From NCBI GenBank assembly GCA_027459765.1, contig DAIDHD010000059.1, positions 499-64,498 of the forward strand: 64,000 nucleotides of DNA, given 5' to 3'. The position numbers were made by a program, and so were the translations under genes. The DNA comes from Gammaproteobacteria bacterium. GTDB taxonomy: Bacteria > Pseudomonadota > Gammaproteobacteria > Steroidobacterales > Steroidobacteraceae. Positions 43,503 through 53,881 of this stretch are shown piece after piece; position 1 is the stretch's first letter; each line of letters begins with the position of its first letter. The notes below the pieces were generated by a model. It was not told the origin of the DNA, searched no databases, and saw only the letters and a list, made by a program, of their open reading frames with translations.

Positions 43503-45059
43503 ATGAGCACCCGCGAAGAGCCGGCCGGCCGGCGCAGCCGGCGGCGGCCAGCCGCCGCCGCCGACGCACACGCGCCGAGCGACCGTACCCGCGCCTACCG
43601 CCACCTGCGCAATCCGTTCCGCCCGCTCGAGGTGTTCTCGACGGACGAGGTCGCGGCCATGCACGACGCGGCCCTCATAATCCTCGAGACCCAGGGCATG
43701 AAGGTCCTGTCGGCCGACGCCCGGCGCCGCTACGCGGCCGCCGGCGGGCAGGTCGACGAGGCTTCGCAGATGGTGCGCCTCGACCGTGCGCTCGTGGCCG
43801 ACGCCCTTGCCAAGGCGCCGCGGGAGATCACCCTGCACGCCGGTGATCCCTCGCGCCACATGCCGGTGTCGGGGGCTCACGTGGCGTTCGCACCCACCTC
43901 CGGTCCGCCCAACATCATGGACGTCGATCGTGGCCGGCGCGCCGGCACGATCGAGGACTTCTGCAACATGATGAAGCTCTGTCAGAGCTTCGAGGTGATC
44001 CACCTGCTCGGCGGCGCCACCGAGCCGCAGGATGTCGCGCCCGCCGTGCGCCACATGCACGTGATGCGCGCGCAGCTGCTGCTCACCGACAAGGTGCCCT
44101 TCATGTTCTCGCGCGGTTCGGCGCAGATCGCCGACAACTTCGAGCTCATCCGGATCGCGCGCGGCATCACGCCCGATGAGTTTCGCGCCCGGCCGTACGT
44201 TTACACCATCATAAACACCAACTCGCCGCTGCAGCTCGACGTGCCCATGGCCGACGGCATCGTCGACAGTGCGGTCGCCGGGCAATTGCTCATCATCACG
44301 CCGTTCACCCTGGCCGGCGCCATGGCGCCGGTGACGGTGGCGGGGGCGCTGACGCTCGCACACGCCGAGTTCCTCGCCGGCCTGACGCTTGCCCAGATCG
44401 CCCGCCCGGGCGCGCCGGTGATGTACGGCAGCTTCACCTCCAACGTCGACATGAAGTCCGGTTCGCCGGCCTTCGGCACGCCGGAATACGTCAAGGCGTC
44501 GTTCGGCGCCGGCCAGCTGGCGCGCTTCATCGGGCTGCCGTGGCGCTCATCGAATGCCACCGCCTCGAACGCGCCGGACGCGCAGGCCGCCTACGAATCC
44601 CAGATGAGCCTCTGGGGCGCCCTGTTCGGCGGCTGCAATTTCATCCTGCACGCCGCCGGCTGGCTGGAGAGCGGCCTCACCACGTCGTACGAGAAGTTCA
44701 TCCTCGACGTGGAGATGTTGCAGATGTTCGCGGAGGTGTTTCAGCCGGTGGGCGCCAGCGCCGCGGACCTCGCGCTCGAGGCGGTCGGGGAGGTCGGACC
44801 CGGCGGGCACTTCTTCGGTTGCGCGCACACCATGGAGCGCTATCGGAGCGCCTTCTACGCGCCGCTGGTGTCCGATTGGCGCAACTTCGGCCAATGGAGC
44901 GAGGGCGGCGCCAAGACCGCCACGCAGCGCGCCACCGAGATCTGGAAGGCGACGCTGGCCGCCTATACGCCACCGGCGCGGGATCCGGCCGTGGTCGAGG
45001 CCGTGAACGACTTCGTCGCCCGGCGCACGCACGAGGGCGGGGCGTTGCCCGCGACTTGA
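43503..45059 (+). CDS. Trimethylamine methyltransferase (MttB) family protein, non-pyrrolysine type, paralog 1
   Basis: In-frame ATG at 43503 (GAGGAG upstream) in ORF 42465..45059. The 518-aa product has no internal stop. Family blocks are INTNSPLQLD, ITPFTLAGAMAPVTVAG, GAPVMYGSF, GSPAFGTPE, DAQAAYES and HAAGWLESGL. The N-terminal tail is Arg-rich. Confidence 0.88.
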   Translation: MSTREEPAGRRSRRRPAAAADAHAPSDRTRAYRHLRNPFRPLEVFSTDEVAAMHDAALIILETQGMKVLSADARRRYAAAGGQVDEASQMVRLDRALVADALAKAPREITLHAGDPSRHMPVSGAHVAFAPTSGPPNIMDVDRGRRAGTIEDFCNMMKLCQSFEVIHLLGGATEPQDVAPAVRHMHVMRAQLLLTDKVPFMFSRGSAQIADNFELIRIARGITPDEFRARPYVYTIINTNSPLQLDVPMADGIVDSAVAGQLLIITPFTLAGAMAPVTVAGALTLAHAEFLAGLTLAQIARPGAPVMYGSFTSNVDMKSGSPAFGTPEYVKASFGAGQLARFIGLPWRSSNATASNAPDAQAAYESQMSLWGALFGGCNFILHAAGWLESGLTTSYEKFILDVEMLQMFAEVFQPVGASAADLALEAVGEVGPGGHFFGCAHTMERYRSAFYAPLVSDWRNFGQWSEGGAKTATQRATEIWKATLAAYTPPARDPAVVEAVNDFVARRTHEGGALPAT

Positions 45060-45269
45060 TCCTCGGGCGGCCACGCCGTCCAAATGCTCCGCGGCGAATC
45101 GACTCGGTCTGGTGCTGACGCATCCAGACAACCCCGTGACGCAAACGGATCAGCCGCTCCTGGCGGTGGTGACCATACTGCGATCGACACGAGAGTCGCC
45201 GCCCGCGAGCGGCGCCGGCTCTCGCCAGTTCCCTTTGAAGGGAGCACCGCCTACCGGAGGAGCATCACC

Positions 45270-46865
45270 ATGTCCGACTCATCCGTGACCGGCGCGACGG
45301 CCACGCCCGCTGCGGAGGCGCAGCGCGGACGTCGTCCGAGCGGGCGCGATGCCAAGCGCGCCGCGCGTGCCGCGCGCAGCGGCTCCACCGTGCCCTACAT
45401 CACCCGCAAGATTCCGTACTACGAGGTGCTCGGCGAGGAGGGCCTCGCCCAGCTCGAGGAGAACGCCGACACCATACTCGAGGAGATCGGCATCGACTTC
45501 CGCGAGGATCCGGAGGCGCTCGCGATCTGGAAGGCCGCGGGCGCCGACGTGCAGGGCGAGCGCGTGCACTTTGCGCGCGGCATGTGCCGCGAGCTCGTGC
45601 AACGCACGGCGCCGCGCGAGTTCACGCAGCACGCGCGCAATCCGGCGCGCAGCGTGCTGATCGGCGGTCCCAACACGGTGTTCGCGCCGGCCTACGGCTC
45701 GCCTTTCGTGCGCAACCTCGACGAGGGGCGGCGTTACGCGCGCATCGAGGACTTCCGCAATTTCGTCAAGCTCGCTTATATGTCGCCGTCCCTGCACCAC
45801 AGCGGCGGCACCATCTGCGAGCCCGTCGACCTGCCGGTGAACAAGCGCCACCTCGACATGGTGTACAGCCACCTGAAGTACAGCGACAAGCCCTTCATGG
45901 GGTCGGTGACCGCGCCGGAGCGCGCCGCCGACTCGGTCGCGCTCGCCGACATCGCCTTCGGCGCCGACCGGCTCGATCCGGCCACGGGCCGGCCCAAGAC
46001 CACGCTGATCAACCTCATCAACGTCAATTCACCGATGACCTACGACGCCACCATGCTCGGCGCCGCCAAGGTCTATGCCCGCGCCAACCAGGCCACCATC
46101 ATCACGCCGTTCATCCTCGCCGGCGCCATGTCGCCGGTGACGGTCGCGGGCACGGTGGCGCAGACGCTCGCCGAGGCGCTCGCCGGCATGGCGTTCGTGC
46201 AGCTGGTCAATCCGGGGGCCCCGGTGGTGCTCGGCAGCTTCGCCTCCTCGATCTCCATGCAGTCGGGCGCGCCCACCTTCGGTACGCCGGAGCCGGCGCT
46301 GGTGCTGTACGTGATGGCGGCGCTGGCGCGCCGTCTCGGGGTGCCGTTCCGCTCGGGCGGGAGCCTTTGCGCCTCGAAGATTTCCGACGCGCAGGCCGCG
46401 TTCGAGTCGGCGCAGACGCTGCTGCCGACCTGCCTCGCGGGCGTGAACTTCGTGCTGCACACCGCCGGCTGGCTCGAGGGCGGTCTCGCCATGGGCTACG
46501 AGAAGTTCGTGATGGACGCCGACCAGGCCGGGATGATGCACACCCTGCTCGCCGGCGTGGACCTCACCGCCAACGGCCAGGCGCTCGACGCCATGCGCGA
46601 GGTCGGCCCGGGCAAGCACTTCCTGGGCTGCGCCCACACCCAGGCCAACTTCGAGACCGCGTTCTACCGCTCCCCGCTCGCCGACAACAACAGCGTCGAG
46701 CAGTGGGAGGCCGAGGGTGCGAGCGACATGACCAAGCGCGCCAACGCGCTGTGGAAGAAGATGCTGGCCGAGTACGAGGAGCCGCCGCTCGATCCGGCCG
46801 TCGACGAGGCGCTCAAGGACTACGTCGCGCGGCGCAAGGCCGAGGCGCCCGACTCGAACGTCTGA
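45270..46865 (+). CDS. Trimethylamine methyltransferase (MttB) family protein, non-pyrrolysine type, paralog 2
   Basis: In-frame ATG at 45270 (GGAGGAG upstream) in ORF 45084..46865. The 531-aa product has no internal stop. It shares blocks with paralog 1 (INVNSPMTYD, ITPFILAGAMSPVTVAG, GAPVVLGSF, GAPTFGTPE, DAQAAFES, HTAGWLEGGL). Confidence 0.88.
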   Translation: MSDSSVTGATATPAAEAQRGRRPSGRDAKRAARAARSGSTVPYITRKIPYYEVLGEEGLAQLEENADTILEEIGIDFREDPEALAIWKAAGADVQGERVHFARGMCRELVQRTAPREFTQHARNPARSVLIGGPNTVFAPAYGSPFVRNLDEGRRYARIEDFRNFVKLAYMSPSLHHSGGTICEPVDLPVNKRHLDMVYSHLKYSDKPFMGSVTAPERAADSVALADIAFGADRLDPATGRPKTTLINLINVNSPMTYDATMLGAAKVYARANQATIITPFILAGAMSPVTVAGTVAQTLAEALAGMAFVQLVNPGAPVVLGSFASSISMQSGAPTFGTPEPALVLYVMAALARRLGVPFRSGGSLCASKISDAQAAFESAQTLLPTCLAGVNFVLHTAGWLEGGLAMGYEKFVMDADQAGMMHTLLAGVDLTANGQALDAMREVGPGKHFLGCAHTQANFETAFYRSPLADNNSVEQWEAEGASDMTKRANALWKKMLAEYEEPPLDPAVDEALKDYVARRKAEAPDSNV

Positions 46866-53151: not shown

Positions 53152-53173
53152 GATCGTCGTCGCAGCCGGCGGA

Positions 53174-53881
53174 TCAGCGGGCCGCGGCTGCGCCCCGTCG
53201 TTCGGCGATGAGACGCTTCGCGGTCTCGACCGCCACCGCGGCGTCGCGGCAGTAGGCGTCCGCGCCCACGGCCTTGCCGAACTCCTCGTTGAGCGGCGCG
53301 CCGCCGACCAGCACGATGTAGTCGTCGCGGATGCCGCGCTCCTTCAGGGTGTCGATCACCACCTTCATGTACGGCATGGTCGTGGTCAGCAGCGCCGACA
53401 TGCCGAGGATGTCCGGCTTGTGCTTTTCGAGCGCGTCGAGGTACTTCTCGACGGCGTTGTTGATGCCGATGTCGATGACTTCGAAGCCGGCACCCTCCAG
53501 CATCATCGACACCAGGTTCTTGCCGATGTCGTGGATGTCGCCCTTGACCGTGCCGATGACGATCTTGCCGATCGGCTCGACGCCGGTCTCCGCGAGCAGC
53601 GGCCGCAGGATTTCCATGCCGGCTTTCATGGCGTTGGCCGCCAGCAGCACCTCGGGCACGAACAGGATCCCGTCGCGGAAATCGATGCCGACGATGCGCA
53701 TGCCCTCGACCAGAGCGTCGTTGAGCACGCGCTCGGCCGACCAGCCGCGCTTCAGGAAAATGTGCGTCGCCTCTTCGACCTCGTCCTTGAGCCCGTTGTA
53801 GAGGTCGTCGTGGACTTGCTCGGTGAGCTCCTCGTCGCTCAAGGAGTTGAGATCGAATTCGCCTTCGGCCGCTTCCGACAT
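53174..53881 (-). CDS. Corrinoid (cobalamin-binding) protein, MtgC/MtbC-like
   Basis: The 235-aa product has an N-terminal B12-binding cap helix bundle. The B12-binding Rossmann domain follows, with the DxHxxG motif (GTVKGDIHDIGKN) and MSALLTTT. Confidence 0.9.
   Translation of the reverse strand: MSEAAEGEFDLNSLSDEELTEQVHDDLYNGLKDEVEEATHIFLKRGWSAERVLNDALVEGMRIVGIDFRDGILFVPEVLLAANAMKAGMEILRPLLAETGVEPIGKIVIGTVKGDIHDIGKNLVSMMLEGAGFEVIDIGINNAVEKYLDALEKHKPDILGMSALLTTTMPYMKVVIDTLKERGIRDDYIVLVGGAPLNEEFGKAVGADAYCRDAAVAVETAKRLIAERRGAAAAR

What the first reader, a model, noticed from the sequence alone, without database searches (positions are those of the whole stretch)
43503..53881. Complete corrinoid-dependent methyl-transfer-to-folate module in an apparently aerobic proteobacterial chromosome
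Seen in sequence:
- Two MttB-family methyltransferase genes on the plus strand converge on an eight-gene minus-strand array.
- That array encodes a corrinoid protein with DxHxxG, DUF1638, a 120-aa 'virulence factor'-family protein, a MetV-like Cys-rich protein, MetF, a pterin-binding methyl-THF:corrinoid methyltransferase, a 2Fe-2S + ASKHA reductive activase, and a histidine kinase core.

Established knowledge:
- Non-pyrrolysine MttB homologs characterised so far are MtgB (glycine betaine) in Desulfitobacterium hafniense and MtpB, MtcB and MtyB in Eubacterium limosum.
- They act with a corrinoid protein, a methylcorrinoid:THF methyltransferase and an ATP-dependent reductive activase. All of these came from strict anaerobes.

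Inference:
- This locus encodes every part needed to strip a methyl group from an unknown (probably quaternary amine) substrate and pass it via Co(I)/CH3-Co(III) to THF.
- MetVF would then oxidise methyl-THF to methylene-THF.
- The surrounding genome carries oxyR-ahpCF, type II citrate synthase and PQQ-type proteins, which suggests an aerobic lifestyle.
- To my knowledge neither the substrate nor the physiological role of such proteobacterial clusters has been biochemically established.
Basis: partly seen in the sequence, partly recalled or inferred. Interest (0 to 1): 0.8.

Follow-up and report, generated by a model that had tools for sequence, protein, structure and literature searches.

The report
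B12-dependent betaine demethylation gene cluster
This is a real, complete vitamin-B12-dependent gene cluster that most likely strips methyl groups from glycine betaine and one other betaine-like compound and passes them to folate, but the same system was described in aerobic proteobacteria in 2025, so it is a new member of a known kind.

Summary

The two MttB genes lack pyrrolysine. The seven genes from the corrinoid protein to the activase form a tightly coupled operon.

The interpretation, methyl transfer from a quaternary amine through a corrinoid to tetrahydrofolate (THF), is well supported.
- The same gene set occurs in about 30 related loci.
- It also matches the Sinorhizobium meliloti locus, at 54-77% identity, that Mausz et al. 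(PNAS 2025, PMC12478193) call MtgBCDE.

That paper showed by genetics and proteomics in aerobic Ruegeria pomeroyi that this system demethylates glycine betaine. The claims "only strict anaerobes" and "role unknown" are therefore outdated.

MttB2 is most likely the glycine betaine enzyme.
- Its orthologs sit next to betA, betB and choline transporter genes.
- It keeps three of the four betaine-contact residues of MtgB.

MttB1 belongs to a sister clade of unknown substrate.

The histidine kinase is unique to this window and is not part of the conserved module.

Three points were not found in the papers read:
- a conserved GbdR/CdhR-type direct-repeat operator upstream of both mttB2 and mtgC;
- conserved MetV and PF13769 partners of MetF;
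- a distinct MttB1 clade.

Verdict: new member of a known kind, interest about 0.35.

The parts
43503..45059 (+). MttB1: non-pyrrolysine MttB-superfamily methyltransferase (518 aa), substrate unknown
   Evidence: PF06253 at 641 bits over the full length. It is 40% identical to MttB2. It has Ser where MtgB has Y97 but keeps R312 and H348. Orthologs at 72-82% identity occur in Steroidobacteraceae, often as the first gene of the mtgC operon.
45116..45142 (+). Candidate operator upstream of mttB2: TGACGC-N15-TGACGC direct repeat. A conserved -10-like GTGACCATACT follows at about 45169-45179.
   Evidence: The architecture matches the P. aeruginosa CdhR/GbdR/SouR sites described in PMC5806209.
45270..46865 (+). 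MttB2: probable glycine betaine:corrinoid methyltransferase (MtgB type, 531 aa)
   Evidence: PF06253 at 780 bits. It scores 770 bits against S. meliloti PDB 4yyc and 434 bits against D. hafniense MtgB. Y142, R361 and H397 align with Y97, R312 and H348 of MtgB, and Leu366 sits at the pyrrolysine position. Orthologs lie next to betA, betB and choline transporter genes.
46903..47565 (-). Orphan histidine kinase core (HisKA_3 plus HATPase_c, 220 aa). It is window-specific and sits in the variable junction between mttB2 and the activase gene.
   Evidence: It is absent from all other loci. The junction length varies from 30 bp to 8.3 kb.
47690..49717 (-). RACo-type ATP-dependent reductive activase of the corrinoid protein (N-terminal 2Fe-2S domain plus ASKHA domain)
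   Evidence: Pfam Fer2 plus RACo_linker, Raco_middle and RACo_C_ter. It scores 329 bits over the full length against PDB 3zyy. It is 59% identical to the S. meliloti cluster gene.
49733..50650 (-). MtgD: methylcorrinoid:tetrahydrofolate methyltransferase (pterin-binding)
   Evidence: Pterin_bind at 104 bits. NCBIfam PRK07535 at 374 bits, above its cut-off of 259. Best PDB matches are MeTr and the MetH pterin domain. The start codon overlaps the metF stop.
50647..51666 (-). MetF-type methylenetetrahydrofolate reductase (the MetF2 of the known system)
   Evidence: PF02219 at 128 bits. It is 67% identical to the S. meliloti cluster gene. The start codon overlaps the metV stop.
51663..52160 (-). 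MetV-like Cys-rich subunit (PF12225, MTHFR C-terminal family)
   Evidence: It has 9 Cys, including CxxCxxC. It is present in 33 related loci next to metF.
52160..52522 (-). PF13769 'Virulence_fact' small protein, conserved partner of MetV and MetF, function unknown
   Evidence: It is present in 29 related loci in the same position. There are 5957 homologs; the 120 listed all carry this single domain. About 96 residues are conserved, with one invariant Cys.
52519..53151 (-). DUF1638 protein, genetically linked to B12 reactivation in Phaeobacter
   Evidence: PF07796 at 103 bits. Genetic evidence is in Price 2018. It is induced on betaine in R. pomeroyi.
53174..53881 (-). MtgC: corrinoid (cobalamin-binding) protein with DIHDIG
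   Evidence: B12-binding_2 plus B12-binding. The motif is at residues 115-120. It is 77% identical to the S. meliloti cluster protein. The best NCBIfam model is MtgC_2, at 214 bits, below its cut-off of 370.
53993..54041 (-). Candidate operator upstream of mtgC: three tandem half-sites, TGTCGC-N16-TGTCGC-N15-CGTCGC
   Evidence: It is conserved about 100-110 nt before mtgC in L010-L013, L017, L044, L071, L089 and L090.

Best explanation
**What it is.** The locus is an MtgBCD-type cobalamin-dependent demethylation module of a probably aerobic or facultative Steroidobacteraceae-like gammaproteobacterium.

**Proposed mechanism**
1. MttB2 binds glycine betaine. It transfers one N-methyl group to the Co(I) form of the corrinoid protein MtgC, giving dimethylglycine and methyl-Co(III).
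2. MttB1 does the same with a different carboxylated quaternary amine.
3. MtgD moves the methyl group from MtgC to tetrahydrofolate.
4. MetF, with its Cys-rich partner MetV and probably the small PF13769 protein, oxidises methyl-THF to methylene-THF for C1 oxidation or assimilation.
5. When the cofactor is oxidised to Co(II), which should be frequent in air, the RACo-type activase reduces it back at the cost of ATP. DUF1638 assists in an unknown way.

**Regulation.** The mttB2 gene and the mtgC operon are probably switched on together. The likely regulator is a GbdR/CdhR/SouR-type AraC protein, encoded outside the window, that binds direct repeats upstream of both.

**Shown here:** domains, motifs, operon structure, synteny, operator conservation and orthology to the S. 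meliloti cluster.

**Inferred:** substrates, direction of the MetF step, roles of PF13769 and DUF1638, and the regulator.
For: **Parts**
- All domains are present with strong scores.
- MtgC has DIHDIG, and MetV and RACo have Cys motifs.
- The activase is RACo-type. The pterin enzyme is MeTr/MetH-type.
- Overlapping start and stop codons couple the genes from DUF1638 to MtgD.

**Synteny**
- Convergent MttB2 facing RACo-MtgD-MetF-MetV-PF13769-DUF1638-MtgC recurs in about 30 of 80 loci. These include Steroidobacteraceae, Halomonas, Motiliproteus, Amphritea and Halioglobus.
- All of these components are also encoded at the S. meliloti locus (54-77% identity, in a different arrangement), which also has bmt and a betaine ABC transporter.
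- Mausz et al. describe that locus as MtgBCDE, and they show the function genetically in R. pomeroyi.

**Glycine betaine for MttB2**
- betA, betB, a choline binding-protein gene and an ABC transporter lie directly upstream of orthologs in Azoarcus and seven other loci.
- Dimethylglycine-dehydrogenase-like genes are nearby in 23 loci and folD in 8.
- Y97, R312 and H348 of MtgB are conserved throughout the MttB2 clade (residues from PMC13080624).

**Co-regulation**
- The YGWCGC-N15-YGWCGC motif lies upstream of both units.
- 18 of 64 matches fall in the 1.2% of sequence that is promoter window.
- The same architecture is published for CdhR, GbdR and SouR.
- A DJ-1/AraC regulator gene sits directly upstream of mtgC in 10 loci.
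Against: - The fourth betaine-contact residue, F356, is Gly in MttB2 and in all the proteobacterial relatives sampled except one distant paralog (Leu). A Trp four residues earlier may or may not replace it.
- In a small neighbour-joining tree, D. hafniense MtgB falls outside both proteobacterial clades. Phylogeny alone therefore does not assign the substrate.
- No betaine transporter, dimethylglycine dehydrogenase or regulator gene was found among the window ORFs scanned.
- R. pomeroyi sequences could not be fetched, so the link to the tested organism runs through S. meliloti.
- No NCBIfam equivalog model reaches its cut-off.
- The operator was defined from this window, and the related loci are not independent.
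- Aerobic growth of the organism is inferred, not shown.
Confidence: 0.75

Rival explanations
1. The core genes (MtgC, MtgD, RACo, DUF1638) serve mainly as a split cobalamin-dependent methionine synthase. MtgD would run in reverse, from methyl-THF to MtgC, and a homocysteine methyltransferase (MtgE) encoded elsewhere would complete the reaction. The MttB genes would be accessory. This can also be an additional role rather than an exclusive one.
For: - Price 2018 showed that these four proteins plus MtgE are needed for methionine synthesis in Phaeobacter.
- Mausz 2025 showed that mtgC and mtgD mutants of R. pomeroyi are methionine auxotrophs.
- MtgE-like genes lie near MttB2 orthologs in 8 loci and in L090.
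Against: - There is no MtgE-like gene in the window.
- A close relative has a classical full-length MetH right next to its MttB2 ortholog (L006), so the split enzyme is not needed there.
- Two MttB genes, a dedicated MetF-MetV pair and a betaine-type operator all point to catabolism.
Confidence: 0.3
2. MttB2 acts on another quaternary amine, such as proline betaine, carnitine or gamma-butyrobetaine, rather than glycine betaine. The module is otherwise as described.
For: - F356 of MtgB is not conserved.
- D. hafniense MtgB is not sister to the MttB2 clade.
- Members of the superfamily below about 50% identity differ in substrate (PMC12155760).
Against: - Orthologs are repeatedly adjacent to betA, betB and choline uptake genes, whose product is glycine betaine.
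- Y97, R312 and H348 are kept in every clade member.
- The S. meliloti ortholog sits in the cluster assigned to betaine demethylation.
Confidence: 0.2
3. The two large proteins are true trimethylamine methyltransferases, as automatic annotation names them.
For: Sources name the homologs 'trimethylamine--corrinoid protein Co-methyltransferase'. Both match PF06253.
Against: - Both ORFs are uninterrupted. Leu366 of MttB2 aligns with the pyrrolysine of M. barkeri MttB.
- Scores of 317 and 253 bits fall far below the 525-bit cut-off of the pyrrolysine MttB model.
- No pyl genes are in the window.
Confidence: 0.02

Closest known systems
MtgBCD(E) of aerobic Proteobacteria (Ruegeria pomeroyi; S. meliloti cluster), Mausz et al. 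PNAS 2025, PMC12478193
   Same: It has the same parts: a pfam06253 MtgB, the corrinoid protein MtgC, the pterin-binding MtgD, an adjacent MetF2, a RamA/RACo-like activase and DUF1638. The window proteins are 54-77% identical to the S. meliloti cluster proteins, and all of these components are also encoded at that locus, in a different arrangement.
   Different: - All parts sit in one locus in a soil-type Steroidobacteraceae lineage.
- There is no MtgE nearby.
- There is a second, divergent MttB paralog.
- There is an orphan kinase.
- The paper does not mention MetV, PF13769 or an operator.
Split methionine synthase of Phaeobacter inhibens, Price et al. 2018, PMC5764234
   Same: The corrinoid protein, pterin protein, RamA-like activase with ferredoxin domain, and DUF1638 are the same families.
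   Different: That system was defined by methionine auxotrophy and includes a homocysteine-binding subunit. Here no such subunit is in the window, and two MttB genes are attached.
MtgABC glycine betaine system of Desulfitobacterium hafniense (anaerobe)
   Same: It has the same chemistry and the same MttB-superfamily fold. MttB2 scores 434 bits against MtgB and keeps Y97, R312 and H348.
   Different: - F356 is replaced.
- The THF methyltransferase here is MeTr/MetH-like. No MtgA chain could be identified by name among the 18 PDB matches, so the relation to MtgA is unresolved.
- The activase is RACo-type with an N-terminal 2Fe-2S domain.
- The host is probably aerobic.
MtpB, MtcB, MtyB and MthB systems of Eubacterium limosum
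   Same: Several MttB paralogs with different quaternary amine substrates share one corrinoid protein, one THF methyltransferase and one activase.
   Different: Those feed the Wood-Ljungdahl pathway in a strict anaerobe. Their sequences could not be obtained, so no direct comparison with MttB1 was made.
MetFV-type methylenetetrahydrofolate reductase of acetogens
   Same: MetF plus a Cys-rich MetV-family subunit encoded side by side.
   Different: Here the enzyme is expected to run in the oxidative direction in an aerobe. It has an extra conserved PF13769 gene, and the electron acceptor is unknown.
GbdR/CdhR/SouR regulons of Pseudomonas aeruginosa
   Same: Direct-repeat half-sites resembling GGTCGC with a 15-bp spacer lie upstream of quaternary amine catabolic genes. 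Regulator genes of the same domain type are adjacent in 10 related loci.
   Different: The controlled genes in Pseudomonas are oxygenase and dehydrogenase routes, not a corrinoid route. No regulator gene is in this window.

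Membership tests
MttB superfamily, non-pyrrolysine branch | Full-length match to PF06253 | tested here: met
   641 and 780 bits, covering profile positions 2-500.
MttB superfamily, non-pyrrolysine branch | No in-frame UAG; an ordinary residue at the pyrrolysine position | tested here: met
   Both ORFs are uninterrupted. Leu366 of MttB2 aligns with the X of 7xcl. MttB1 has a one-residue gap there.
Pyrrolysine-dependent trimethylamine methyltransferase MttB (TIGR02369) | Score above the curated cut-off of 525 bits | tested here: not met
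   317 bits (MttB1) and 253 bits (MttB2).
MtgB glycine betaine methyltransferase (D. hafniense type) | Carboxylate-binding R312 and H348 | tested here: met
   Conserved in MttB1, MttB2 and all 35 proteobacterial relatives aligned.
MtgB glycine betaine methyltransferase (D. hafniense type) | Aromatic Y97 contacting the quaternary nitrogen | tested here: inconclusive
   Met for MttB2 (Y142) and every MttB2-clade member. Not met for MttB1, which has Ser; its clade has Ser, Cys, Ala or Thr.
MtgB glycine betaine methyltransferase (D. hafniense type) | Aromatic F356 | tested here: not met
   Gly in both paralogs and in all but one of the proteobacterial relatives aligned (Leu in L041_3177). A Trp (Phe in L041_3177) sits at position 352 instead.
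MtgB glycine betaine methyltransferase (D. hafniense type) | [quoted passage not shown] | not testable with these tools
   Needs an enzyme assay.
MtgBCD(E) system of aerobic Proteobacteria | Corrinoid protein with a B12 cap and a DxHxxG B12-binding domain | tested here: met
   Pfam. DIHDIG at residues 115-120. 77% identical to the S. meliloti protein.
MtgBCD(E) system of aerobic Proteobacteria | Pterin-binding MtgD with an adjacent MetF paralog | tested here: met
   The genes overlap by ATGA.
MtgBCD(E) system of aerobic Proteobacteria | RamA/RACo-like activase and DUF1638 | tested here: met
MtgBCD(E) system of aerobic Proteobacteria | Orthology to the described clusters | tested here: met
   All components are also encoded at the S. 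meliloti locus L002 at 54-77% identity, in a different arrangement. A direct comparison with R. pomeroyi proteins was not possible.
MtgBCD(E) system of aerobic Proteobacteria | Homocysteine-binding MtgE for the methionine synthase role | tested here: not met
   No hit in the 64-kb window. It may be encoded elsewhere in the genome.
MtgBCD(E) system of aerobic Proteobacteria | Requirement for growth on, and induction by, glycine betaine | not testable with these tools
   Needs genetics or expression data in this organism.
RACo-type reductive activase | N-terminal 2Fe-2S ferredoxin domain plus linker, middle and ASKHA domains | tested here: met
   All four Pfam domains are present. 329 bits against 3zyy over residues 10-637. 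Cys42, Cys48, Cys51 and Cys96 are present.
MetFV-type MTHFR | MetF (PF02219) with an adjacent Cys-rich MetV (PF12225) | tested here: met
   The electron partner and the direction of the reaction were not tested.
GbdR/CdhR/SouR-type regulon | Direct-repeat half-sites with a 15-bp spacer upstream of the regulated genes | tested here: met
   Sites at 45116-45142 and 53993-54019. They are conserved in orthologous promoters.
GbdR/CdhR/SouR-type regulon | Cognate DJ-1/PfpI plus AraC regulator gene | tested here: inconclusive
   None in the window. One is present directly upstream of mtgC in 10 related loci.

The most novel reading that the evidence does not exclude
The MttB1 clade is a methyltransferase with a substrate not yet known for the MttB superfamily.
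- It has Ser or another small residue in place of the aromatic Y97.
- In Steroidobacteraceae it is often the first gene of the mtgC operon, behind a hydantoinase-family ATPase gene.
- In Alphaproteobacteria it is paired with a dimethylglycine-dehydrogenase-like enzyme.

Separately, MetF, MetV and the PF13769 protein may form a previously undescribed oxygen-tolerant methyl-THF-oxidising complex that feeds electrons to the respiratory chain of aerobes.
Probability: 0.3. Interest if true: 0.55.

Novelty: new member of a known kind. Interest (0 to 1): 0.35.

Why it matters
- The locus extends the recently described aerobic B12-dependent betaine demethylation route from marine bacteria and rhizobia to widespread soil gammaproteobacteria. 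Hundreds of metagenome relatives are 76-92% identical.
- Here every part sits in one locus, which makes it a convenient template for annotation.
- The secondary observations give concrete targets for work on how an oxygen-sensitive cofactor cycle runs in aerobes. These are a shared GbdR-type operator, conserved MetV and PF13769 partners of MetF, and a second MttB clade of unknown substrate.
- It also ties soil cobalamin demand to osmolyte turnover.

Tried and rejected
**Regulatory RNA and promoter scans**
- Rfam found no cobalamin riboswitch or other family in the cluster at either threshold.
- The sigma-70 promoter and terminator scan found nothing above chance.

**Structures**
- AlphaFold2 on the PF13769 protein, with 37 close homologs, gave pLDDT 59.8. 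I therefore ran no fold search.
- Sequence searches of the PDB gave no relatives for DUF1638, PF13769 or MetV.

**Data that could not be obtained**
- The window's own MttB2 is in the protein collection, but its contig could not be retrieved.
- Ticak et al. 2014 is not held.
- Sequences of MtpB, MtcB, MtyB, MthB and the R. pomeroyi proteins were not available.

**Other negatives**
- The exact 8-mer TGWCGCAW is too strict for relatives. The degenerate paired pattern is not more frequent in the window than chance (4 matches against 3.1 expected), so only its placement and conservation carry weight.
- I rejected the idea that the kinase belongs to the module.
- I rejected the 593-aa reading of MttB2.

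Full report

The window is about 70% G+C, so long spurious ORFs abound. I called genes from the third-codon-position G+C (GC3) pattern and from Pfam.

- Two MTTB proteins lie on the plus strand, at 641 and 780 bits.
- On the minus strand lie a corrinoid protein, DUF1638, a PF13769 'Virulence_fact' protein, a PF12225 MetV-like protein, MTHFR, a pterin-binding protein, a Fer2 plus RACo activase, and a HisKA_3/HATPase_c kinase core.
- The corrinoid protein has DIHDIG. MetV has nine Cys, including CxxCxxC. The activase has four Cys in its ferredoxin domain.

I refined several starts.
- MttB2 begins at ATG 45270 behind GGAGGAG.
- MetF is 50647-51666 and MtgD is 49733-50650.
- The junctions DUF1638/PF13769, PF13769/MetV, MetV/MetF and MetF/MtgD overlap. 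The other gaps are 15-22 nt.
- The seven genes from mtgC to the activase therefore look like one operon.
- The kinase follows after a 124-nt gap and is only 220 aa, with no sensor domain.

**2. Surroundings**

The flanks are ordinary chromosomal genes.
- They include citrate synthase, PBP1A, pilMNOPQ, aroK/aroB, hemE, OxyR-AhpCF, a DEAD helicase, ApbE, trpE and trpD.
- Among the ORFs scanned I found no betaine transporter, dimethylglycine dehydrogenase, response regulator, MetH or MtgE-like gene.
- G+C content is uniform across the cluster.
- The closest named protein relatives are from Steroidobacteraceae and other gammaproteobacterial MAGs.
- That this family is aerobic or facultative is my own knowledge. 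The window itself only offers OxyR-AhpCF as a hint.

**3. What is already known**

The literature search changed the picture.
- Price et al. 2018 (PMC5764234) found that aerobic Phaeobacter inhibens makes methionine with a three-part B12 enzyme. It needs a RamA-like activase with a ferredoxin domain and a DUF1638 protein.
- Mausz et al. 2025 (PMC12478193) worked with aerobic Ruegeria pomeroyi.
  - Growth on glycine betaine, choline or carnitine induces two pfam06253 proteins (MtgB1 and MtgB2), the corrinoid protein MtgC, the pterin protein MtgD, the adjacent MetF2, RamA and DUF1638.
  - mtgC and mtgD mutants can neither use betaine nor make methionine.
  - The genes are co-located in S. meliloti and in marine Alpha-, Gamma- and Deltaproteobacteria.
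- The two papers read report no assay with purified proteobacterial enzymes.

**4. Is this locus that system?**

Yes, by every test I could run.
- The S. meliloti locus (L002) encodes a cobalamin-binding protein, DUF1638, a 'virulence factor', an MTHFR C-terminal domain protein, MTHFR, a methyl-THF cobalamin methyltransferase and an ASKHA protein. It also has an MttB homolog, bmt and a betaine ABC transporter.
- The window proteins are 54-77% identical to these.
- MttB2 scores 770 bits against PDB 4yyc, the S. meliloti protein.
- A scan of one genome per species found more than 588 MttB2 relatives.
- In the best 80 loci, tblastn with the window proteins shows the convergent arrangement in about 30. 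MttB2 faces RACo-MtgD-MetF-MetV-PF13769-DUF1638-MtgC. These loci include Halomonas, Motiliproteus, Amphritea and Halioglobus.
- The activase is RACo-type (3zyy, 329 bits).
- The pterin enzyme is MeTr/MetH-like. No chain named as D. hafniense MtgA was recognisable among its PDB matches, so that relation is unresolved.

**5. Substrates**

*MttB2 most likely takes glycine betaine.*
- In Azoarcus KH32C an 80% identical ortholog lies between folD and ETF-QO on one side and a choline-binding protein, betA and betB on the other.
- Seven metagenomic loci have betA, betB, a choline binding-protein gene and an ABC transporter directly upstream.
- Dimethylglycine-dehydrogenase-like genes are near orthologs in 23 loci.
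- Picking et al. 2026 (PMC13080624) defined the betaine contacts of D. hafniense MtgB as Y97, R312, H348 and F356.
- MttB2 and every member of its clade keep Y, R and H. F356 is Gly, with a Trp four residues earlier.

*MttB1 has an unknown substrate.*
- It is 40% identical to MttB2.
- It keeps R and H but has Ser at the Y97 position, as does its whole clade.
- Conservation of the carboxylate-binding pair suggests another acidic quaternary amine.
- In a neighbour-joining tree the two clades are sisters, and D. hafniense MtgB lies outside both. Phylogeny therefore does not settle specificity.
- In relatives, MttB1 is often the first gene of the mtgC operon, preceded by a hydantoinase-family gene.
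- In Alphaproteobacteria its 52-59% relatives follow a DAO-GCV_T demethylase gene, with a TetR gene nearby in all three and directly after the MttB gene in two.

*Neither protein is a trimethylamine enzyme.* There is no pyrrolysine codon, Leu sits at that position in MttB2, and scores fall below the curated cut-off.

**6. The kinase**

- It occurs in none of the other 90 loci.
- The space between mttB2 and the activase gene varies from 30 bp to 8.3 kb in relatives. In one relative it holds a classical MetH and TIR-domain genes.
- The kinase is therefore a local insertion in a variable junction, not a module component. Its function is open.

**7. Regulation**

- TGWCGCAW occurs four times in the 64-kb window. 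All four are in sense orientation in the two promoter regions, as pairs 21-22 bp apart.
- Alignments of orthologous upstream regions show the repeats, and a -10-like box, are conserved.
- The generalised pattern YGWCGC-N15-YGWCGC has 64 matches in all held sequence. Of these, 18 fall in the 1.2% that lies within 300 nt upstream of MttB2, MtgC or MttB1 genes on the sense strand.
  - These include Azoarcus, Amphritea, Halioglobus and Woeseiaceae loci.
  - The binomial value of 5e-20 overstates the case, because the loci are related and the motif came from this window.
- The architecture equals that published for the Pseudomonas regulators CdhR, GbdR and SouR: GGTCGC half-sites, a 15-bp spacer, direct repeats (PMC5806209).
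- A gene of the same DJ-1/PfpI plus AraC type lies directly upstream of mtgC in ten related loci.
- I therefore predict that mttB2 and the mtgC operon are co-induced by such a regulator, encoded outside this window.
- The MttB1 promoter has only weaker variants of the motif.

**8. Not covered in the papers read**

- Mausz et al. do not mention MetV or the PF13769 protein.
- The MetV papers returned by my search concern anaerobes, mainly acetogens.
- Here MetV and PF13769 accompany MetF in 33 and 29 loci respectively.
- The electron acceptor for methyl-THF oxidation in an aerobe is unknown.
- I could get no structural lead on PF13769, DUF1638 or MetV.

**9. Verdict**

- The system is a new member of a kind described in 2018 and 2025, so interest drops from 0.8 to about 0.35.
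- The residual value lies in the MttB1 clade, the MetF partners and the predicted operator.

Noticed in passing
window 12522-12632 (+): A c-di-GMP-I-GGC riboswitch aptamer (59.2 bits, just above the gathering score of 59) lies about 250 nt upstream of pilM, the first gene of the pilMNOPQ type IV pilus genes.
   Followed up: no
window 46368-46464 (+): A weak match to the mttB pyrrolysine insertion element PYLIS_3 (23 bits, E 0.22). It starts right after the Leu366 codon of MttB2, which is the pyrrolysine-equivalent position. It is probably a relic of coding-sequence homology and not functional.
   Followed up: partly
L089 7940-10000; L090 7792-9849; L013, L044, L027; L001 22536-24590; L042, L043, L046, L053, L062: A 685-aa hydantoinase/oxoprolinase-family (ASKHA) gene without a B subunit recurs in these MttB loci. 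It lies directly upstream of the MttB1 ortholog in L089 and L090 and close to it in L013 and L044. It also recurs within the fetched loci around MttB2 orthologs in Betaproteobacteria. It is absent from the window. A protein with the same family annotation (SPO3739) is induced about 27-fold on betaine in the R. pomeroyi proteome.
   Followed up: partly
window 46866-47689; same junction in L006-L077: The convergence point between mttB2 and the activase gene is a variable spot, from 30 bp to 8.3 kb. In L006 it holds a full-length MetH and TIR-domain genes. Here it holds the orphan kinase, whose GC3 is lower than its neighbours'.
   Followed up: partly
L003 7497-11464; L004; L005: In Mesorhizobium, Gemmobacter and Leisingera plasmids, the MttB1-like gene directly follows an 800-aa DAO-FAO_M-GCV_T demethylase gene in all three. 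A TetR gene directly follows it in Gemmobacter and Leisingera; in Mesorhizobium the TetR gene lies upstream of the demethylase gene. This looks like a compact two-step demethylation unit.
   Followed up: partly
L006 2254-9278; L044: In two Steroidobacteraceae relatives, cobalamin lower-ligand and salvage genes lie directly upstream of the MttB2 ortholog. CobT and CobS are seen in both loci; CobU, a BtuFCD-like transporter and CbiA were seen by Pfam in L006. This links cofactor supply to the module.
   Followed up: no
window 54067-55409 (-): A TPR plus peptidase C39-like protein and a DUF6627 protein lie directly upstream of mtgC on the same strand. In ten relatives the AraC-type regulator gene sits in that position instead. 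Their function is unknown.
   Followed up: no
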